Assembly (NCBI GenBank): GCA_033813415.1
Contig: JAPXRV010000002.1
Coordinates: 23,432-87,431 of the forward strand
DNA: 64,000 bases
Reading direction: 5' to 3'
From: Opitutales bacterium
GTDB lineage: Bacteria > Verrucomicrobiota > Verrucomicrobiia > Opitutales > JAFGAQ01
The position numbers were made by a program, and so were the translations under genes. The notes under the pieces are model-generated. The model worked only from the letters and a program-made list of their open reading frames with translations. It did no database searches and was not told where the DNA came from. Every line of letters starts with the position of its first letter. Position 1 is the stretch's first letter. Shown one piece after another: positions 56,193 through 64,000 of the stretch.

Positions 56193-57800
56193 ATGACAGA
56201 GACAACGGGAGCAAATCTGGGTTTTGAGGACAAGCTGTGGAACGCGGCGGACAAGATGCGGGGCACGATGGATGCGGCCGAGTATAAACATGTCGTCCTT
56301 GGACTGATCTTCCTAAAATACATCTCGGATGCTTTTCAGGAGCGCTACGACCAGTTGAAGGCAGAGGCTTTTGCCGACCCCGAAGATCGCGACGAATACA
56401 TGGCCCTCAATGTCTTCTGGGTTCCGCCTGAGGCCCGTTGGCTCTATCTCCAGAGCCGCGCTAAAGACCCGAAGATTGGCCAGCTCCTGGACGAGGGAAT
56501 GACCGCCATCGAGCGTGACAACCCTCCGCTAAAGGGTGTGCTTCCCAAAGACTACGCCCGGCCTTCTCTCGACAAAGCGCGGCTTGGGCAACTCATCGAT
56601 TTAATCGCTACGATTGGCTTGGGAGACGAGCAGAGCCGTCAGCGTGACGTCCTCGGGCGCGTTTACGAGTACTTTCTTGCCAGGTTTGCCGAAAAGGAAG
56701 GCAAACTTGGCGGTGAGTTCTATACTCCGCAGTGCGTGGTCCAGCTGCTCGTGGAGATGCTGGAGCCCTACAAGGGCCGCGTCTTTGACCCCTGCTGTGG
56801 CTCGGGTGGCATGTTTGTGCAAGCGGTGCGCTTCGTGAAGGCCCACGCCACCGGCAATGGCAACGGCGCAGCCGCCCTGAGGCAGATTTCCATCTATGGG
56901 CAAGAGTCGAACTATACAACTTGGCGGCTGGCCATCATGAATCTGGCCATTCGGGGCATTGATGCTGATATCCGTTGGGGCGACTCTTTCCTTCAGAATA
57001 AGCATCCCGACCTTCGGGCCGACTACATCATCGCCAACCCGCCTTTCAATATGGAGGATTGGGGTTTTTCCAAGGTGAAGGATGACGTGCGCTGGGCTTA
57101 CGGCACTCCTCCCGGAGGCGGGCAACGGAAGCAGAAGGATGGCTCCGTTGTTTCGGTGGACGGCGGCAACGCCAACTACGCCTGGATTCAGCATTTCATT
57201 CACCATCTGGCTTCAGACGGCCTTGCGGGCTTTGTTCTTGCCAACGGCTCCATGTCCACCCAGACGGGCGGAGAGGGAGAGATCCGCAAAGCCCTGATCG
57301 AAGCTGACATGGTGGACTGCATGATCGCGCTGCCCGGCCAGCTCTTCTACACCACGCAGATTCCCGTCTGCCTGTGGTTCCTCACGCGATCGAAGCGTCC
57401 GGACAACAAGCGGGGCTTCCGGGGGCGCGTTGGAGAGACCCTTTTTATCGATGCCCGCAAGCTTGGCACCCTTATAGATCGCACTCACCGTGAGCTGTCT
57501 GCTGCTGAAATCGTGGAAGTCGCCCGTACCTACCATGCCTGGCGCGGCGAAGCTAAGGATGGTGCTTACGAGGATAAGCCCGGCTTCTGCCAGTCGGCGA
57601 CCCTCGAGGATATCCGCAAGCACCATCATGTGCTGACACCTGGCCGGTATGTGGGCTCCGAAGCGATCGAAGACGATGGCATTCCCTTTGAGGAAAAGAT
57701 GGCCGAACTCGCCGACCGCCTGCAGCAGCAGATGCGGGAATCCATCGAACTCGATGCCACCATCCGCAAGAATCTGGAGGTTTTGGGCTATGGAGAGTGA
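56193..57800 (+). CDS. hsdM: Type I restriction-modification system, DNA methyltransferase subunit
   Basis: 535 aa with an HsdM_N-like N-terminus. Motifs: [17 protein letters not shown] motif [11 protein letters not shown], and catalytic IANPPFNM (NPPF at 57036-57047). Confidence 0.9.
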
Positions 57801-59079
57801 GTGGACAAAGAGCACTTGGGGTGACGAGGTTTCCTTGGAATACGGCAAGGGCATTCGCGGGTATCAAACTGCCAAGGGTCGGTATCGCGTGTTTGGCGCT
57901 AACGGTCCAGTCGGTTGGACAAGCAAACCACTTGTGCAGGGTTCAGGGGTGATTTTAGGTAGGAAGGGAGCATATCGAGGGGTTGAGTATTCGAAGGAAC
58001 CGTTCTTCGTCATCGATACAGCGTATTACGTGCAGCCCAAGAAGCCTCTCGATATGAGGTGGCTTTATTACGCCATAAAGTACTATAGGCTTGGGGAAAT
58101 AGACGATGGCTCGCCAATTCCATCTACGACAAGGGCTGCTGTCTATGTTCGCGATTTGAGCGTTCCCCCGCTTCCCGAGCAGAAGGCTATTGCGCACGTG
58201 CTCGGGTCGTTGGATGACAAGATAGAAGCGAACCGGCAGATGAACTCCACGCTGGAGGCGATGGCGCAGGCGCTCTTCAAGAGCTGGTTCGTGGACTTCG
58301 ACCCCGTGATCGACAACGCCCTCGCCGCAGGCAACCCCATTCCCGACGAACTCCAGGCCCGCGCCGCAGCCCGTGAATCCCTCGGCGACGCCCGCAAACC
58401 CCTCCCCGAACACCTCCAGAACCTCTTCCCCGCCTCCTTCACCCAAACCGAAGAACTCGGCTGGATTCCGGAGGGGTGGGCGGTAGGCCGCATTCGTGAC
58501 TGTTGTGAAAAGATTCAGAATGGCGGAACCCCAAAACGAAACATCAAGGATTATTGGCAGCCGCTCCAAGTGCCCTGGTTGACTTCCGGCGAGGTAAGAC
58601 GCGGTTTCATTACCAGAACTGAAACTTTCATTTCTGAGCTTGGACTGCAAAAAAGTGCGGCAAAATGGGTTCCTGAAGATGCGACCGTAGTCGCCCTTTA
58701 CGGAGCGACTGCCGGTCAGGTTGCTTTCTGCGCCTCAAGGCTTACTACTAACCAAGCAGTATGTGCCTTGATCAGCAAAGAGAACTATCGCTTCTTTAGT
58801 TACATTTTTCTGTCTCGATCTATTGGTTCCTTAGCCAATCAGGCAAGAGGTTCAGCTCAGCAGAACATAAGTAAGGGCATTGTTGAGGAACTCCCAGTGA
58901 TCCTCCCAAATACATCTGTCGTTCAAACCTTTGACAAACTACTTGAACCAGTCTTCGCCAAGTGGAAGCTGAACGAATCGTATAGCTCCGACCTCGCCAA
59001 GACCCGTGACACACTGCTGCCCAAACTCCTCTCCGGCGAACTCCGCCTGCCAATCGAAGAATTGGAGGTGGCGGTATGA
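57790..59079 (+). CDS. hsdS: Type I restriction-modification system, specificity subunit
   Basis: The ATG at 57790 ([14 protein letters not shown]) overlaps the hsdM stop by 11 nt. Two variable TRD-like halves are separated by conserved helices: [46 protein letters not shown] and the C-terminal [16 protein letters not shown]. Confidence 0.85.
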
Positions 59080-61001
59080 GCAGGGAAACGACGCTGTCCA
59101 GCTTGGCCATGCTGAAGGTGCGTGTGGACCAAGGGGGCGATTATCTGGAGTATCTCAGGCCTTTCATCCTCCATGTCCTGCCGAAGCTTCAGAATGGCGT
59201 CGTCACGGATGAAAGCGTCTCATTGGCCCTGCTCAACGAGTTCGGGCTCTCGATACCTCGCAGAACAACCCAGATCGTTCTCAAGCGGCTAACGAAGAAG
59301 GCCGGGCCTCTCCGCAAGGACAACAACACTTACGTCCTGGAAAAAGACATCTCGTCGGGCGATCTTGCCACTCGCCGGGCTGACGCATCCCGGCGCATCT
59401 CAGCAGTCGCCCATGCTCTGATTCGATTTGCAAAGGAGTTCCACGACAAAGACCTATCGGAAGACAGCGCTTTTGAGGCCCTGACTCTCTTCCTTTCAAG
59501 GTTTTCCGTCAGCTGCATTCGCTCCTACCTTCGCGGAACAGCTCTGCCCAACAATCTCACCGCGAAGGATGGAGATCTTCTGTTGGTCTGCCAATTTGTG
59601 AAACAGATCCAGTCGATATGTCCCGAACGTTTCGAGGATTTCATCCTTCTCGTTCAAGGGCACATGCTCGCCAATGCTCTGCTCTGTCCTGACCTCAAGT
59701 CTGTTTCCAAGACCTATGCAGGTGTTTCGTTTTTCCTCGATACGCCTCTGCTACTTCAGGTTTTGGGGCTTGAAGGCGAAACGAAGGAACAATCTGTAAA
59801 GGAGTTGATTCGATTGCTTCAAAGCCTAAGTGGAACGGTTGGATATTTCATTCACACTTTCGATGAGTTGAGGAGTGTCATCCGGAAAACCTCAGATTAC
59901 ATCGACTCTACAGATGGACGCGGATCAATCGTTTACGAAGCCAGACGTTTAGGCAAATCCAGGTCAGACCTACTACTGGAGGCAGATAATGCCAAGGAAA
60001 GTCTGGATAGGCTGAAGCTCGTACCACATAACACCCCGCCTTACATTGCGAAATTCCAAATCGATGAAAGCGCGTTCGGGGATGAATTAGATGATTCAGT
60101 TTCGTACAACAATCCGAATGCTCGCCAGAATGATATAAACTCTGTGCGCAGTATCTACGTGCTTAGGCAAGGGACGATTCCACATTCCATCGAGTCTTCG
60201 AAGGCCATCTTTGTCACCAGCAACACCGGTTTCGCGAGAGCAGCTTTTGAATACGGAAGAAACTTCGAACAAACGCGGGAGGTCTCCGCTGTAATCTCTG
60301 ATTTCAGCTTGGCAAATACCGCTTGGCTAAAGGCTCCTCAGGGCGCACCGTCTCTTCCGAGAAAGGAGGTTCTGGCTTATTCATACGCAGCTCTTCGCCC
60401 CAGCGAGGAGTTTCTCAGGAAGACGCTTGTCGAAGCCGAAAAGCTCGAAAGGGAAGGCAAGATCTCTGAGCGATCCCACCAGATGCTCCGAAGCAATCAC
60501 ATCATCCAAGAAGATCTGCTGTCTCATACTCTTGGAGAGGAAGATGCGCTCACGGAGCGGTCAATCACTGCAGTTTTAGAAAAAGCTGAGGCGGAGATAA
60601 AAAAGGAGGAGTCGGCGAAACTCCGACAAGAGAAGGCGGCTCGCACACGAGCTGAAACAGATCTGCAGGAAGAAAGAACAAAAAGAGAGGAAATATCTCG
60701 TCGAATCTATTGGGATTGCGATACGCAAGCAAAGAGGTGGTCAGATATTGGGGCCGGAACATTGGTCTTTTTCGTCTTGGCGGGTGCCGTTTGCGGATTA
60801 CTCAAGCTTCCTGATAACCTGTTGGCGGGAGTGGTTATTCTTTCTGTCCCTCTGGTCTTTGCTGTTCTGACCGTTTGTAACCTCATCTGGGGAACCACAG
60901 TAAAGCAGTTGAGGGACAATGCCCAAGTGAATCTTAGGCAAAGATTTCTTAAGAGGGAGTCGCAGAGGCTGGGAATTGAATTTGAGAATCTTGCAGAATA
61001 A
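59076..61001 (+). CDS. unknown 641-aa protein: winged-helix-like N-terminus, PIN-like central region, coiled coil, C-terminal two-TM hairpin (defence-locus cargo)
   Basis: ATGA overlap with the hsdS stop (59076-59079). wHTH-like stretch: GLSIPRRTTQIVLKRLTKKAGPLRKDNNTYVL. PIN-like landmarks: FFLDTPLLLQVLG, HTFDELRSVI, QNDINSV, IFVTSNTGF. Hydrophobic helices at aa 558-578 and 582-606 (nt 60747-60893). I do not recognise the family. Confidence 0.7.
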   Translation: MSRETTLSSLAMLKVRVDQGGDYLEYLRPFILHVLPKLQNGVVTDESVSLALLNEFGLSIPRRTTQIVLKRLTKKAGPLRKDNNTYVLEKDISSGDLATRRADASRRISAVAHALIRFAKEFHDKDLSEDSAFEALTLFLSRFSVSCIRSYLRGTALPNNLTAKDGDLLLVCQFVKQIQSICPERFEDFILLVQGHMLANALLCPDLKSVSKTYAGVSFFLDTPLLLQVLGLEGETKEQSVKELIRLLQSLSGTVGYFIHTFDELRSVIRKTSDYIDSTDGRGSIVYEARRLGKSRSDLLLEADNAKESLDRLKLVPHNTPPYIAKFQIDESAFGDELDDSVSYNNPNARQNDINSVRSIYVLRQGTIPHSIESSKAIFVTSNTGFARAAFEYGRNFEQTREVSAVISDFSLANTAWLKAPQGAPSLPRKEVLAYSYAALRPSEEFLRKTLVEAEKLEREGKISERSHQMLRSNHIIQEDLLSHTLGEEDALTERSITAVLEKAEAEIKKEESAKLRQEKAARTRAETDLQEERTKREEISRRIYWDCDTQAKRWSDIGAGTLVFFVLAGAVCGLLKLPDNLLAGVVILSVPLVFAVLTVCNLIWGTTVKQLRDNAQVNLRQRFLKRESQRLGIEFENLAE

Positions 61002-61798
61002 TGAACCTCTCCTGCACTAAAACTGAGTATGAGGACAACCACGCCTGCGTGTCGTGGCGTGGTCACTCGTTCTCGGTAGGCAGTGAGTTCGACGGATTTC
61101 TGAAGGGAAGCGTTCGCTCGCGACTGGACGATGAGGAGGGTTCGGACGATTTCCGCAGCCATGTGAGAGGATTGGAACTGACTGGGATGGGGAAGACCAC
61201 ACTGGAGGCGGTGCTGGCAGCCGAAGCCCCCGAGGAACGGGATTGGGCCGCTGGCGAGGCTTTGGCCGAAGCATTCTTGATGGAGACCCATGGGATCGCC
61301 TTCCCCTGGAACATGGAGCGCGATAAGCGCAATCCGTTTGGATCCCTGCCGGGTGCTGATCTAGTAGGCTTCCTCTCCGAAGGCGATGGCTACCGGCTGG
61401 CGCTTGGCGAGGTCAAAACATCCTCCGAGGAAGCCTATCCGCCGCAGGTCATGTCGGGCAGGTCGGGACACATGGGTCATCAGATTGACACGCTCGGGAG
61501 TGACTTGACGACCCTATGCCAGCTTCTCAAATGGTTGCACCCGCGCACTAAAGGTGGGCAGTTTGAGGATGCGTTTGACAGGTCCTGTGTTGCATACTTC
61601 AATTCGGGCCGAAAGGCGATAGCGCTTTTTGGCGTGCTCATCCGTGACACGCAACCGAACGCTCGGGACCTCTCCGCCAGGGGATCAGCCTTGCGGAATC
61701 GGCTCGCTGCGCCGACGCAGTGCGACCTCATCGCCCTTTACCTTCCCTGGAAATCGGACCAACTAATCCCCGCGATCCGGCAAGGAGGTGACGCATGA
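61001..61798 (+). CDS. PD-(D/E)xK-type nuclease-like protein, HamA/DUF1837-like candidate
   Basis: 265 aa. The start shares base 61001 with the upstream stop (TAATG). The core reads PGAD120LVGFLSEGDGYRLALGE137VK139TSS, a D...ExK arrangement. It is ATGA-coupled to the downstream helicase. Confidence 0.6.
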   Translation: MNLSCTKTEYEDNHACVSWRGHSFSVGSEFDGFLKGSVRSRLDDEEGSDDFRSHVRGLELTGMGKTTLEAVLAAEAPEERDWAAGEALAEAFLMETHGIAFPWNMERDKRNPFGSLPGADLVGFLSEGDGYRLALGEVKTSSEEAYPPQVMSGRSGHMGHQIDTLGSDLTTLCQLLKWLHPRTKGGQFEDAFDRSCVAYFNSGRKAIALFGVLIRDTQPNARDLSARGSALRNRLAAPTQCDLIALYLPWKSDQLIPAIRQGGDA

Positions 61799-64000
61799 GC
61801 CACTGGTTGCTGGATGGAATCGCGGAGCGCCGCCGCGCGGCCTTGAAGGCTGCGGACAAGGCGCAGGTTTACCGTGAGCTGCTGTCTACCGAGGCGGAGA
61901 CAGACTATGATCTGATCCGGAATGTCGCCGACGCGTTGGAGCTGGCCTCGCTCGACCTCATCTTGGAACGCTTTGAAGAGGACGAGGAGAAAGAGAAGCT
62001 TTTCCGCGCCGCTGCGCGTGATGCTTTCCGCCTTTCCAAGAGTCTGCCAGCGGCGGATATCCCCCTCCAAGAAGGCATGGCGCTGCTGCGGGCATCCTGT
62101 CTGGCAGTGCTCGGGGATCGGGGCTCTGATGCCGCTCGTTGGCTTCGCGCCTTGGAAGACTCCGGGACCTGGCCAGAACTGCCCTTTGAATCGGAAAACT
62201 GGGGCGAGCGAACCTGGGCGACCATCATCGACGTGTGGCTTCGTTTGATTCGGAAACGGGGTTGGACTGACCGTGACCTGGTGCTGCAACGCATCGCGAG
62301 TTTGCGCGAAAGCCAGAGTGAATTCGAGAAGACCTACCTGGACGGCATCCCGGCCCAATCCGCAAAAGCGACGGCCCTTGAACTTATCGGGCTCTACCAT
62401 TTGGCCAAAGCGGCGGATATTCTTGCGCACTTCATCACGGATGGAGTCGTGGAAGGGAACCATCAGGTGCAGCAGCTCCTCGACACCCATTTCGACCGGG
62501 CATTGGCGGCTTGCGAACCAGCCCGCTTGATTGAGCTGGAGCCCATGACGCGTCTATTGGCGGCTGCCTCGGCGCAACTGGTCAACAATTCGATCTGGAC
62601 GGTGACCCGGGCGGTGAACTCACGAGTGACTCAGTTTGTGCGGACGCTCGTATCTCGTGGACGTGGGGACAAAGCGATCTTCGATGTTCTACCGCCGCAA
62701 CGCCGAACTCTCGCTGAAAAGGGACTCTTGGGCTCAAGCCGCCGTGCAGTGGTGGTCAGTTTGCCAACATCTAGCGGCAAGACGCTGATTGCGCAGTTCC
62801 GCATTTTGCAGGCACTGAATCAGTTTGATGACCCGGGCAGTGAAGGCTGGGTCGCTTACCTCGCTCCCACCCGGGCATTGGTCAATCAGGTGACGAGGCA
62901 ATTGCGCAGGGACTTTAAGCCATTGGGCATCGTGGTCGAGCGGGTGAGCCCCGCACTCGAAGTTGATGGCGTGGAAATGGAATTGCTGACAGAAACAGAA
63001 ACGGACTCCAAGTTTCGCGTTCTGGTGACCACTCCGGAGAAACTCGATCTCATGCTCCGGCAAGGATGGGAGAGCAAGATTGGCAGGCCGCTGACGCTGG
63101 TTATTGTCGACGAAGCCCATAATTTGGCCAGTTCGCGCCGAGGCCTGAAACTCGAACTACTCCTCGCCAACATCAACAAGGAGTGCGAATACGCGCAGTT
63201 TCTCCTGCTCACGCCTTTTGTTTCCAATGCGCGTGAAGTAGCCAGATGGCTTGGCGGACAGAATTCTGACGACATTAGCCTCGCCCTCGATTGGCAGCCC
63301 AATGACCGTACAATCGGAATCGTGCAAGCAGTTCAGGGTGACCCGCTGAATGGGCGCAGCTATGACTATTCTTTGGAGTTCGAAAGTGTCCACACGACCC
63401 GGAAGACCATTGCCCTCGATGATCGGGTTCCTTTCCCGAAGACCGAGGAAATAGCACCGACTTTTTCCAAGGCAAAGAATCAAGGCACAATAGCAGCGGT
63501 CGCGGCACAGTATCTGAAACAGCGTGGCCCCGTCATTCTCATGCACGCGAGGCCGGATTGGGTTTGGTCCTTGGCAGACCAGCTCAAGATCGTCTCGAAT
63601 CGGAAAATTGCTGTTCACGCAGACATTGCTTTTGTGCAGCGATATCTGGCGCTCGAATTGGGAGAAGCATTTCCCCTCATCGAGTTATTGTCGTTTGGCA
63701 TCGGAATCCATCATTCGGGATTGCCCGAGGAGGTTAGGGTTTTGGTCGAGTGGTTATTCGAGTCCTCGCACCTCGACTTTCTGGTTGCTACGACGACCAT
63801 CGCTCAAGGTATCAATTTTCCCGTCAGTGGTGTAGTGATGGCATCCCACCAGTATTTCAGCGCGAGGGGCGCAGAAGACATGCCACCGGAAGACTTCTGG
63901 AATATCGCGGGTAGAGCAGGGAGAATATCTCAGGGCCAACTCGGAATAGTCGCTTTGGCCGCCGACAGTCACGAAAAGGCCAGTGCTTTGCGGACCTACA
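61795..64000 (+). CDS. Ski2/Hel308-like DExH-box SF2 helicase with ~320-aa N-terminal extension (partial, runs off window end); HamB-like candidate
   Basis: Own translation: ATG at 61795, open for 735 codons to 64000. It is not in the track because no stop is reached. Motifs: PTSSGKT (62764-62784), TTPEK, VIVDEAH (DEAH 63109-63120), LLLTPF, IGIHHSGL, VATTTIAQGINFP, NIAGRAGR (63907-63924). Confidence 0.85.
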   Translation, partial: MSHWLLDGIAERRRAALKAADKAQVYRELLSTEAETDYDLIRNVADALELASLDLILERFEEDEEKEKLFRAAARDAFRLSKSLPAADIPLQEGMALLRASCLAVLGDRGSDAARWLRALEDSGTWPELPFESENWGERTWATIIDVWLRLIRKRGWTDRDLVLQRIASLRESQSEFEKTYLDGIPAQSAKATALELIGLYHLAKAADILAHFITDGVVEGNHQVQQLLDTHFDRALAACEPARLIELEPMTRLLAAASAQLVNNSIWTVTRAVNSRVTQFVRTLVSRGRGDKAIFDVLPPQRRTLAEKGLLGSSRRAVVVSLPTSSGKTLIAQFRILQALNQFDDPGSEGWVAYLAPTRALVNQVTRQLRRDFKPLGIVVERVSPALEVDGVEMELLTETETDSKFRVLVTTPEKLDLMLRQGWESKIGRPLTLVIVDEAHNLASSRRGLKLELLLANINKECEYAQFLLLTPFVSNAREVARWLGGQNSDDISLALDWQPNDRTIGIVQAVQGDPLNGRSYDYSLEFESVHTTRKTIALDDRVPFPKTEEIAPTFSKAKNQGTIAAVAAQYLKQRGPVILMHARPDWVWSLADQLKIVSNRKIAVHADIAFVQRYLALELGEAFPLIELLSFGIGIHHSGLPEEVRVLVEWLFESSHLDFLVATTTIAQGINFPVSGVVMASHQYFSARGAEDMPPEDFWNIAGRAGRISQGQLGIVALAADSHEKASALRTY

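What the first reader, a model, noticed from the sequence alone, without database searches (positions are those of the whole stretch)
61795..64000. Ski2/Hel308-like DExH helicase with an unassigned ~320-aa N-terminal extension, absent from the ORF track
Seen: the ATG at 61795 opens a frame that stays open for 735 codons to the window edge. It carries a complete SF2 motif set:
- motif I, PTSSGKT;
- TTPEK;
- motif II, VIVDEAH, followed by NLASSRRGLKLELLL;
- LLLTPF;
- motif IV, IGIHHSGL;
- motif V, VATTTIAQGINFP;
- motif VI, NIAGRAGR.
Established: this motif flavour (DExH, RG..LE after motif II, HH[AS]GL, T.T[LI]A.G[VI]N.P) is typical of Ski2/Hel308/Lhr-type helicases, the class to which Hachiman HamB belongs.
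Seen: the helicase core starts only at about codon 315. The preceding 61795-62750 encodes a helical-looking region (…ETDYDLIRNVADALELASLDLILERFEEDEEKEKLFRAAARDAF…) with no motif I can assign. It could be a sensor or partner-binding domain.
Basis: partly seen in the sequence, partly recalled or inferred. Interest (0 to 1): 0.6.

Follow-up and report, generated by a model that had tools for sequence, protein, structure and literature searches.

The report
Hachiman-like nuclease–helicase defence pair (PDC-M23)
The open frame is the first 735 residues of a 1,061-residue helicase that, with the small nuclease gene just upstream, forms a divergent relative of the Hachiman anti-phage system nested inside a Type I restriction-modification operon; its "unassigned" N-terminal domain is most likely where the nuclease docks.

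Summary
A 99.94%-identical metagenomic contig shows the full protein is 1,061 aa and is followed directly by hsdR.

It is not unassigned. It fits PADLOC's untested candidate PDC-M23B end to end (1,385 bits), and the 265-aa upstream ORF is PDC-M23A. The two genes are adjacent in 80 of 80 genomes sampled.

M23B is a full-length HamB relative: Foldseek's best PDB hit is 8vx9_B (E 1.8e-26, TM 0.65), and hhalign gives E 9.5e-65. M23A is a remote HamA-type PD-(D/E)xK nuclease with invariant D120 and E137-x-K139 (hhalign P 3e-6).

The N-terminal 264 residues form an all-helical bundle where HamB has its HamA-binding NAH domain. Sequence similarity to HamB starts only around residue 210.

This domain follows M23A rather than the motor. 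In three Latescibacterota species it is fused to a DrmD/SNF2 helicase, and elsewhere it is a free-standing gene beside M23A.

Verdict: a divergent Hachiman-like variant, already catalogued but uncharacterised. Interest is moderate, and the portable docking domain is the most novel lead.

The parts
61795..64000 (+). PDC-M23B helicase, residues 1-735 of 1,061 (the gene would end at window-equivalent position 64980)
   Evidence: Open frame. PADLOC PDLC04531 E 1.9e-301 for the window part and 1,384.6 bits end to end for the full length. L001 supplies the missing 326 residues.
61795..62589 (+). N-terminal all-helical domain (res 1-265), the proposed M23A-docking module and positional counterpart of the HamB NAH
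   Evidence: AF2 gives 11 helices over res 2-264 with block-mean pLDDT mostly 76-94. Alone it matches only PDC-M23B models. It is fused to a DrmD/SNF2 helicase or free-standing next to M23A in other genomes.
62590..62739 (+). Conserved linker (res 266-315) with the invariant NS.W..R.VN…PPQR segment just upstream of motif I
   Evidence: Many invariant columns but pLDDT 41-59. This is the first region that aligns with confidence to HamB.
62740..63264 (+). RecA1 domain (res 316-490) with Walker A PTSSGKT (62764-62784) and DEAH (63109-63120)
   Evidence: Pfam DEAD 315-473 at 4e-23. Motifs read. AF2 secondary structure.
63481..63963 (+). RecA2 domain (res 563-723) with HHSGL, TTTIAQGINFP and GRAGR, preceded by a beta-hairpin insertion (res 505-547)
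   Evidence: Pfam Helicase_C 611-711. AF2 secondary structure.
61001..61798 (+). PDC-M23A, a 265-aa HamA-like PD-(D/E)xK nuclease. Catalytic D120 is at 61358-61360 and E137-V-K139 at 61409-61417. The invariant loop 102-118 is at 61304-61354.
   Evidence: PADLOC PDLC04527 at 6.2e-97. Invariant residues in 60 homologues. hhalign to HamA 87.9%, P 3.3e-6, against shuffled scores of 10-20. A custom HamA HMM hits 136 of 140 family members. AF2 pLDDT 86.8.
59076..61001 (+). 641-aa protein of unknown function, a second and independent embedded gene that is not part of PDC-M23
   Evidence: No Pfam, PADLOC or NCBIfam hit. Absent from all 80 M23 loci. Large family of its own, seen embedded in another Type I R-M operon.
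56193..57800 (+). hsdM, Type I R-M methyltransferase, first gene of the host operon
   Evidence: Pfam N6_Mtase 6.8e-98 and HsdM_N. PADLOC MTase_I 2.3e-210.
57790..59079 (+). hsdS, Type I specificity subunit (429 aa as called on L001; the longest ORF from 57649 overlaps hsdM)
   Evidence: Pfam Methylase_S. PADLOC Specificity_I 9.5e-100. Gene call on L001.

Best explanation
The frame encodes the helicase subunit of a two-gene nuclease-helicase anti-phage system. It is catalogued by PADLOC as PDC-M23 and is a divergent relative of Hachiman (HamAB). The pair is nested, with one unrelated gene, between hsdS and hsdR of a Type I R-M operon.

Shown here: M23A is a PD-(D/E)xK nuclease with intact catalytic residues. 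M23B is a Ski2/Hel308-type motor with all ATPase motifs intact, and it is HamB-like from about residue 210 to its C-terminus. The two genes are always adjacent and co-oriented.

Inferred by analogy with the solved HamAB complex: the all-helical N-terminal domain of M23B binds M23A and holds it inactive, probably through M23A's invariant basic loop 102-118. M23B surveys DNA. When it loads on damaged or free-ended DNA made during infection, ATP-driven movement of RecA2 against the N-domain releases or activates M23A. The nuclease then degrades DNA indiscriminately, which is abortive defence. DNA ends made by the flanking Type I enzyme could be one trigger, but that is speculation.
For: Family assignment:
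- PDC-M23B scores 1,384.6 bits end to end and PDC-M23A 6.2e-97.
- HamB models are the next tier at 3e-63 to 2.3e-67.
- PDC-M23 is cassette CAS_00096 of the guilt-by-embedding screen.

Helicase:
- Foldseek's best PDB hit is HamB 8vx9_B (E 1.8e-26, TMq 0.65, 1,191 columns), against TMq 0.42-0.49 for Hel308, Hjm and Pol theta.
- hhalign against 7 HamB sequences gives 100%, E 9.5e-65, co-linear over residues 8-1047.
- Walker A sits at residue 328, against 334 in E. coli-type HamB.

Nuclease:
- hhalign to HamA gives 87.9%, P 3.3e-6, with the E-helix, D and ExK in register. Twenty shuffled controls score 10-20 against 48.9.
- A custom HamA HMM scores 136 of 140 M23A proteins at E<=0.01, while reversed controls score 2.9 bits or less.
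- Loop 102-118 aligns with the HamA segment that docks into the NAH.

Linkage and context:
- A->B adjacency holds in 80 of 80 loci from many phyla, including archaea.
- The N-domain follows M23A when the motor is swapped for DrmD/SNF2 or is absent.
- hsdM, hsdS, the 641-aa gene, M23A, M23B and hsdR overlap or directly abut one another.
- 19 of 46 well-flanked loci have Type I genes nearby, in two different gene orders.
Against: - No curated HamA model (Pfam PF08878, NCBIfam, PADLOC HamA) reaches threshold on the window's M23A.
- Foldseek does not find HamA for the M23A model; the best hit is FokI at E 0.065.
- The first ~200 residues of the N-domain have no detectable sequence relationship to the HamB NAH.
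- TM 0.65 could be reached by the motor plus C-terminal region alone, so superposition of the N-domains is not proven.
- M23B appears to lack HamB's C-terminal OB-like barrel.
- No complex model, no biochemistry and no phage assay exists for PDC-M23.
Confidence: 0.72

Rival explanations
1. The N-terminal domain is mainly a sensor that recognises a phage protein or nucleic-acid feature, and the nuclease docks elsewhere on the helicase.
For: Residues 1-200 are unrelated in sequence to the HamB NAH yet conserved within the family. Free-standing copies occur without M23A in phage-like contigs, so the domain can exist apart from the nuclease.
Against: The domain stays next to M23A when the motor changes to DrmD/SNF2 or is lost. 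That is what a nuclease-docking module would do. It occupies the position of the HamA-binding NAH in a protein otherwise homologous to HamB.
Confidence: 0.13
2. The pair is an accessory module of the surrounding Type I R-M enzyme, for example processing or extending HsdR cleavage, and not an autonomous system.
For: It is nested in the operon with overlapping or directly abutting genes, between hsdS and hsdR. 19 of 46 well-flanked loci have Hsd genes nearby, in two independent orders, MS-AB-R and R(S)-AB-M. M23A plus a free N-domain sits directly before hsdR in L057 and beside a Type III R-M system in L052.
Against: 27 of 46 loci with at least 4 kb on both sides show no Hsd gene within 7 kb, although the single-sequence phmmer used may miss divergent ones. 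Payne et al. show that many autonomous systems are found embedded in Type I R-M. A related helicase (core 40% identical) on a Rhizobium plasmid sits next to CBASS with no R-M nearby, though its upstream partner matches neither M23A nor HamA.
Confidence: 0.1
3. It is a housekeeping DNA-repair helicase of the Hel308 or Lhr type with an accessory domain.
For: There are partial NCBIfam hits to Hel308 and to the ligase-associated DEXH helicase, and good structural similarity to Hel308, Hjm and Pol theta.
Against: All NCBIfam scores are far below the curated cut-offs, for example 121 bits against 887. The gene is always paired with a nuclease gene. It is distributed patchily across unrelated phyla, including archaea, at 65-95% identity, which is the pattern of horizontal transfer. 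It is nested in R-M operons.
Confidence: 0.03

Closest known systems
PADLOC candidate system PDC-M23 (Payne et al. 2024, bioRxiv 10.1101/2024.01.29.577857; cassette CAS_00096)
   Same: Both proteins match its models end to end. The gene order and the embedding in a Type I R-M operon are the context in which the candidate was defined.
   Different: Nothing differs; this is a member. The candidate itself is untested, and its authors did not link it to Hachiman.
Hachiman HamAB (E. coli ECOR31; PDB 8VX9, 8VXA, 8VXY; Tuck et al. 2024, PMC12278908)
   Same: A ~260-aa PD-(D/E)xK nuclease gene overlaps the start of a ~1,100-aa Ski2-like helicase gene. The catalytic D…ExK sits at nearly the same residue numbers. 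The helicase has an N-terminal helical bundle, RecA1, RecA2 and a C-terminal helical region, co-linear over 947 profile columns. HamB is the best structural match.
   Different: Curated HamA and HamB models do not claim it. Residues 1-200 of the N-bundle have no detectable sequence similarity to HamB. The OB-like C-terminal barrel seems absent. M23A does not retrieve HamA by Foldseek.
Archaeal Hel308/Hjm and the Pol theta helicase domain
   Same: The same SF2 Ski2-like motor and helical C-terminal architecture (TMt 0.6-0.7) with the same motif flavour.
   Different: They have no N-terminal 265-aa bundle and no nuclease partner, and they are housekeeping repair enzymes.
DISARM DrmD (SNF2 helicase)
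   Same: In three Latescibacterota species the same N-terminal domain is fused to a DrmD-type SNF2 motor directly downstream of M23A.
   Different: The window's protein has a Ski2-type motor, not an SNF2 motor. No DISARM genes were identified around those fusions; the next gene has a sacsin-like GHKL ATPase domain.

Membership tests
PADLOC PDC-M23 (candidate two-gene system) | Helicase matches the PDC-M23B HMM over its full length | tested here: met
   PDLC04531: 1,384.6 bits, res 2-1059 against profile 4-1060 of 1060. The window part alone gives E 1.9e-301.
PADLOC PDC-M23 (candidate two-gene system) | Upstream partner matches the PDC-M23A HMM and is adjacent on the same strand | tested here: met
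   PDLC04527: 6.2e-97, res 1-260 against profile 1-259 of 263. The ATGA overlap is seen. Adjacency holds in 80 of 80 loci.
Hachiman (HamAB) | HamA: DUF1837/HamA domain (Pfam PF08878, NCBIfam HamA, PADLOC HamA) above threshold | tested here: not met
   No Pfam, NCBIfam or PADLOC HamA hit on the window protein even at E<=10. PF08878 touches 2 of 60 family members at E~0.09. Remote homology is nevertheless supported by hhalign (87.9%, P 3.3e-6) and by a custom HamA HMM (11.3 bits for the window protein, 136 of 140 members at E<=0.01, reversed controls 2.9 bits or less).
Hachiman (HamAB) | HamA: conserved D-E(X)K nuclease active site | tested here: met
   D120 and E137-V138-K139 are invariant in 60 homologues. 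They align to D118, E137 and K139 of Enterobacter HamA.
Hachiman (HamAB) | HamB: Ski2-like SF2 helicase with intact motifs, homologous to HamB | tested here: met
   Motifs read. PADLOC HamB1 at 3e-63. PDB 8vx9_B by sequence at 2.1e-24. Foldseek top hit 8vx9_B at 1.8e-26. hhalign E 9.5e-65.
Hachiman (HamAB) | HamB: N-terminal alpha-helical bundle (NAH) that binds HamA | tested here: inconclusive
Hachiman (HamAB) | HamB: C-terminal OB-like barrel | tested here: not met
   The AF2 model has no beta strand after residue 723. M23B ends about 84 residues before the C-terminus of E. coli-type HamB in the profile alignment.
Hachiman (HamAB) | Anti-phage activity that needs both the nuclease and helicase active sites, triggered by DNA damage | not testable with these tools
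   No experimental report on PDC-M23 was found.
Ski2-like / Hel308 SF2 helicases | DExH motor with a post-motor helical (WH/ratchet-type) region | tested here: met
   Pfam DEAD and Helicase_C. Foldseek to Hel308, Hjm and Pol theta gives TMt 0.60-0.71. NCBIfam Hel308 models match only partially and far below cut-off, so it is not an equivalog.
Type I restriction subunit HsdR | HSDR_N nuclease domain plus SWI2/SNF2-type motor plus T1RH C-terminal domain | tested here: not met
   None of these domains is present in the ORF. They are all in the next gene, L001:7537-10716.
DrmA / Lhr-type helicases with DUF1998 | C-terminal DUF1998 (MrfA Zn-binding) domain | tested here: not met
   A Pfam scan of the full-length 1,061-aa protein at E<=10 shows only DEAD, ResIII, Helicase_C and a weak AAA_22.

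The most novel reading that the evidence does not exclude
The ~265-aa N-terminal domain is a portable nuclease-docking and nuclease-restraining adaptor. It couples the HamA-like nuclease M23A to whichever SF2 motor it is fused to: Ski2-like here, DrmD/SNF2 in Latescibacterota. It also works as a free-standing partner of M23A, giving a two-gene, toxin-antitoxin-like minimal form. Orphan copies carried by phages, such as the one inside a head-morphogenesis module in L105, could be decoys that neutralise the nuclease and so act as anti-defence proteins against this Hachiman-like family.
Probability: 0.3. Interest if true: 0.7.

Novelty: new variant of a known kind. Interest (0 to 1): 0.45.

Why it matters
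Four reasons:

1. It ties an uncharacterised but widespread PADLOC candidate to a system with a known mechanism. The link gives testable active-site and interface predictions.
2. It shows which Hachiman features vary. The OB-like barrel and the sequence of most of the nuclease-binding bundle differ, while the nuclease core, its docking loop and the motor with its C-terminal helical region are kept.
3. The same N-domain occurs on two unrelated SF2 motors and as a separate gene beside the nuclease. That suggests nuclease-helicase defence systems are assembled from an exchangeable "nuclease plus dock" unit and a motor.
4. If the phage-borne orphan copies are decoys, they would be a new type of counter-defence.

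Tried and rejected
- **Exact full-length protein for AF2.** The 96%-identical orthologue P0001 was used instead.
- **M23A against solved structures.** The single sequence and the family profile both found nothing by sequence. Foldseek found only weak Type IIS nuclease hits.
- **N-domain against family libraries.** No Pfam hit. In PADLOC only the M23B models hit. No PHROG family matched.
- **N-domain against HamB N-termini.** hhalign gave 5% probability, so there is no sequence support for the first ~200 residues.
- **Phage search for N-domain homologues.** A mixed profile was too divergent for the pattern scan. Three single-protein IMG/VR scans found none. tblastn against 50,697 deposited phage genomes found none. 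The phage association therefore rests on one clear metagenomic contig and two suggestive ones.
- **Literature.** No paper mentions PDC-M23 in its main text. The only anti-Hachiman protein found in the indexed literature is Had1.
- **Rejected readings.** It is not HsdR, which is the next gene. It has no DUF1998 and so is not DrmA- or Lhr-like. The 641-aa neighbour is not a third component of the system, because it is absent from all 80 M23 loci.
Full report
**1. The observation**

A GGAGGTGA ribosome-binding site lies 8 nt upstream. The ATG overlaps the stop codon of the preceding ORF as ATGA. Pfam places the DEAD domain at residues 315-473 and Helicase_C at 611-711, so about 315 residues do precede the motor. 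The ORF is missing from the mechanical ORF list only because that tool omits ORFs that run off the window.

**2. Getting past the window edge**

The complete upstream gene was looked up in public assemblies. Contig L001 is 99.94% identical to the window over 6,557 bp and encodes the same 735 residues. There the helicase continues to residue 1,061.

It is followed, with overlapping stop and start, by a 1,059-aa HsdR with HSDR_N, SWI2_SNF2 and T1RH-like_C domains (PADLOC REase_I, 1,099 bits). Upstream in the window lie hsdM (56193-57800), hsdS (57790-59079), a 641-aa unknown (59076-61001) and a 265-aa ORF (61001-61798). All overlap or directly abut one another. The helicase is therefore one of three genes nested between hsdS and hsdR of a Type I R-M operon.

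**3. What it is**

- PADLOC assigns the helicase to PDC-M23B. The window part scores E 1.9e-301, and the full length scores 1,384.6 bits over profile positions 4-1060 of 1060.
- The 265-aa ORF is PDC-M23A at 6.2e-97.
- HamB models form the next tier, at 3e-63.
[quoted passage not shown] Cassette CAS_00096 (two families, count 161) is marked "Assign as candidate PDC-M23" in their supplementary file 8. No indexed paper mentions PDC-M23 in its main text.
- The family is large and well conserved. There are 2,563 helicase homologues, the top 120 at 66-95% identity and ~1,050-1,060 aa, from many bacterial phyla and archaea.
- In 80 species-level genome loci, M23A is followed by an M23B-type gene on the same strand in every case. 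The 641-aa protein occurs in none of them.
- Of 46 loci with at least 4 kb on both sides, 19 have Type I genes within 7 kb. Two gene orders occur: M/S upstream with R downstream, and R(/S) upstream with M downstream. The other 27 have no detectable Type I gene.

**4. Relationship to Hachiman: the helicase**

An AF2 model was made of the 96%-identical full-length orthologue P0001 (pLDDT 82.5, pTM 0.79). Its layout is:

| Residues | Element |
|---|---|
| 2-264 | all-helical bundle |
| 265-315 | conserved linker, low confidence |
| 316-490 | RecA1 |
| 505-547 | beta-hairpin insertion |
| 563-723 | RecA2 |
| 726-1057 | purely helical C-terminal region |

Foldseek against the PDB ranks HamB first: 8vx9_B at E 1.8e-26, TMq 0.65, 1,191 alignment columns. 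Hel308, Hjm and Pol theta reach TMq 0.42-0.49 over ~800-860 columns.

A profile-profile alignment against seven annotated HamB proteins from plasmids gives 100% probability, E 9.5e-65 and 947 columns, co-linear from residue 8 to 1047. The C-terminal helical region aligns with confidence. M23B ends about 84 residues before HamB and has no beta structure there, so HamB's OB-like barrel appears to be absent.

**5. Relationship to Hachiman: the nuclease**

- M23A has invariant D120 and E137-V-K139 in 60 homologues.
- Curated HamA models do not reach it.
- Foldseek finds only weak Type IIS nuclease hits: FokI at E 0.065 and Nt.BspD6I. Tuck et al. report that HamA itself is most similar to a Type IIS enzyme.
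- hhalign of the M23A family against nine annotated HamA/DUF1837 proteins gives 87.9% probability and P 3.3e-6. The upstream Glu-helix, the Asp and the ExK are in register. Twenty column-shuffled controls score 10-20 against 48.9.
- An HMM built from those nine HamAs scores 136 of 140 M23A proteins at E<=0.01. The range is 11-30 bits, with the window's protein at 11.3 bits. Reversed sequences score 2.9 bits or less.
- UniRef already names two 61-64% identical homologues "Anti-bacteriophage protein A/HamA…".

M23A is therefore a remote HamA-type nuclease.

**6. The N-terminal extension**

[quoted passage not shown] It contacts HamA over a 3,038 Å² interface. The centre of that interface is an extended HamA loop, residues 102-117.

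M23B has an all-helical bundle of the same size in the same place. Walker A is at residue 328, against 334 in E. coli-type HamB.

M23A's most conserved segment is PWNMERDKRNPFGSLPG (102-118). AF2 cannot place part of it in the isolated protein (pLDDT below 50 for 109-114). It aligns with the E. coli-type HamA segment PIKRLRWKDHRNMAMRG, which is that docking loop.

The limits of this evidence:
- The N-domain alone matches only M23B models.
- hhalign of the N-terminal regions gives only 5% probability.
- In the full-length alignment, per-column confidence is near zero before about residue 210.
- TM 0.65 × 1,061 is about 690 residue-equivalents. The 745-residue motor plus C-terminal region could supply that alone, so Foldseek does not prove the N-bundles superpose.

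Equivalence to the NAH is therefore shown for position, composition and the last quarter of the domain, and inferred for the rest.

**7. Independent comparative evidence for a docking role**

- In three Latescibacterota species (L071, L073, L083) M23A keeps GADLVG…GEVK. It is followed by a 1,265-1,298-aa protein. The first ~265-285 residues are the M23B N-domain (PDLC04531, 1.6e-55). The rest is a DrmD-type SNF2 helicase (PADLOC DrmD 1.9e-119; Pfam SNF2-rel_dom and Helicase_C). The three proteins are 85-97% identical to each other, so this is one fusion event that has been retained.
- An exhaustive phmmer search with the N-domain against 1.84 billion representatives finds 343 proteins. At least 23 clusters are complete stand-alone proteins of 256-308 aa. 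That is far more than contig-end truncation at random lengths would give.
- In L057 a stand-alone copy sits between M23A and hsdR, with a genuine stop codon and a separate RBS for hsdR. In L052 one sits between M23A and a Type III R-M system. In L099-101 one follows a shortened M23A-like gene downstream of an AAA_15/AAA_21-type ATPase gene.

The N-domain is linked to M23A, not to a particular motor. That is the behaviour expected of the nuclease's docking partner.

**8. Proposed mechanism**

Shown here:
- an intact PD-(D/E)xK nuclease;
- an intact Ski2-type ATPase that is HamB-like from about residue 210 onward;
- obligatory gene pairing;
- repeated embedding in R-M operons.

Inferred from HamAB: the N-domain holds M23A in an inactive 1:1 complex. 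The motor loads on damaged or free-ended DNA. ATP-driven ratcheting then remodels the interface between RecA2 and the N-domain and activates the nuclease, which degrades DNA indiscriminately. Whether Type I cleavage products feed this sensor is speculation. Confidence in the overall reading is about 0.7.

**9. Rivals**

- **A sensor role for the N-domain.** This is possible for residues 1-200 but is less well supported than docking.
- **A dedicated accessory of the Type I enzyme.** This is disfavoured by the 27 of 46 loci without Hsd genes, and by a related helicase beside CBASS on a Rhizobium plasmid.
- **A housekeeping Hel308/Lhr-type helicase.** This is excluded by the pairing, the context, the patchy phylogenetic distribution and NCBIfam scores far below cut-off.

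**10. Novelty and score**

The locus is a member of a catalogued but uncharacterised candidate family. The analysis places that family as a divergent Hachiman-like variant. It has a remote HamA, no OB barrel, and an N-bundle that differs in sequence over most of its length.

This would not greatly surprise a specialist, so overall interest is 0.45. The more novel lead is the portability of the N-domain, including orphan copies in phage-like contigs.

One such copy, P0297, lies between the portal/head-morphogenesis genes and the prohead protease and capsid genes. But nothing was found in IMG/VR pattern scans, in 50,697 deposited phage genomes or in PHROGs. That part remains a low-probability hypothesis.

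Noticed in passing
window 59076-61001 (+): A 641-aa protein with no Pfam, PADLOC, NCBIfam or PHROG match lies between hsdS and M23A, overlapping hsdS by 4 nt and sharing one base with the M23A start. It belongs to a family of over 1,000 'hypothetical' proteins of ~638 aa. A homologue is again embedded between hsdS and hsdR in L109 (next to GmrSD). Another sits beside a 1,245-aa SIR2 protein in L106, and a third stands alone among housekeeping genes in L107. It is absent from all 80 M23 loci, so it is a separate single-gene defence candidate.
   Followed up: partly
L071:10762-14628, L073:10762-14628, L083:10762-14559 (Latescibacterota genomes OZ253462.1, OZ242361.1, OZ244561.1): The M23B N-terminal domain is fused to a DrmD-type SNF2 helicase instead of a Ski2-like motor, directly downstream of an intact M23A. 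The next gene, which overlaps or directly abuts the fusion gene, is 753-1,062 aa, and in L071 its N-terminus matches the sacsin GHKL/Hsp90-like ATPase domain. The three fusion proteins are 85-97% identical to each other.
   Followed up: yes
L057:10776-11618; L052:10762-11547; L099:3817-4644: Free-standing N-domain genes of 261-280 aa lie immediately after an M23A-like gene, with no dedicated helicase. In L057 the pair is between hsdS and hsdR, with a genuine stop and a separate RBS for hsdR. In L052 it is upstream of DUF4391, Type III Mod, a RhuM-family gene and Type III Res. In L099 it lies downstream of an AAA_15/AAA_21-type ATPase gene and a 208-aa gene. At least 23 representative clusters of such stand-alone proteins exist.
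   Followed up: partly
L105:7578-8390 (JGI 3300041074 Ga0451568_083429); also L104:2146-2949 and L097:757-1620: A stand-alone N-domain homologue (P0297, E 2.5e-29 to the window's N-domain) lies inside a phage head module: portal, a head-morphogenesis protein, the homologue, then Peptidase_S78 and the major capsid gene. No M23A is on the contig. Two other orphan copies lie among small unannotated co-oriented genes or directly after thyX. They may be decoys or anti-defence proteins. No relatives were found in IMG/VR pattern scans, deposited phage genomes or PHROGs.
   Followed up: partly
80 genome loci L007-L086: PDC-M23 is embedded in Type I R-M operons in two different gene orders: hsdM-hsdS-[M23AB]-hsdR, and hsdR(-hsdS)-[M23AB]-hsdM. 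This implies repeated independent insertion into R-M operons.
   Followed up: partly
L010:9926-13980 (Arenicellales MAG OY282380.1): Here both M23A and M23B are split into two ORF pieces each (M23A at residue ~136, M23B at residue ~702). This is either a decaying copy or long-read assembly errors.
   Followed up: no
L090:3266-7238 (Rhizobium etli plasmid pRetMIM1e, NC_021909.1): A 1,041-aa helicase lies between M23B and HamB1 in similarity (PDC-M23B 9.9e-178, HamB1 1.8e-78; core 40% identical to the window's). It sits next to a CBASS operon. Its 284-aa upstream partner matches neither the M23A nor the HamA profile convincingly.
   Followed up: partly
window 62590-62739 (M23B residues 266-315): The linker between the N-domain and RecA1 is among the most conserved stretches of the protein (invariant N265, S266, W268, R272, V274, N275, P300, P301, Q302, R303), yet AF2 gives it pLDDT 41-59. 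It may become ordered only on binding the partner or DNA.
   Followed up: no
window 57649-57800: The longest hsdS ORF (from ATG 57649) overlaps the end of hsdM by 152 nt. The gene call on the near-identical contig starts at window position 57790 (429 aa), which is more plausible.
   Followed up: no
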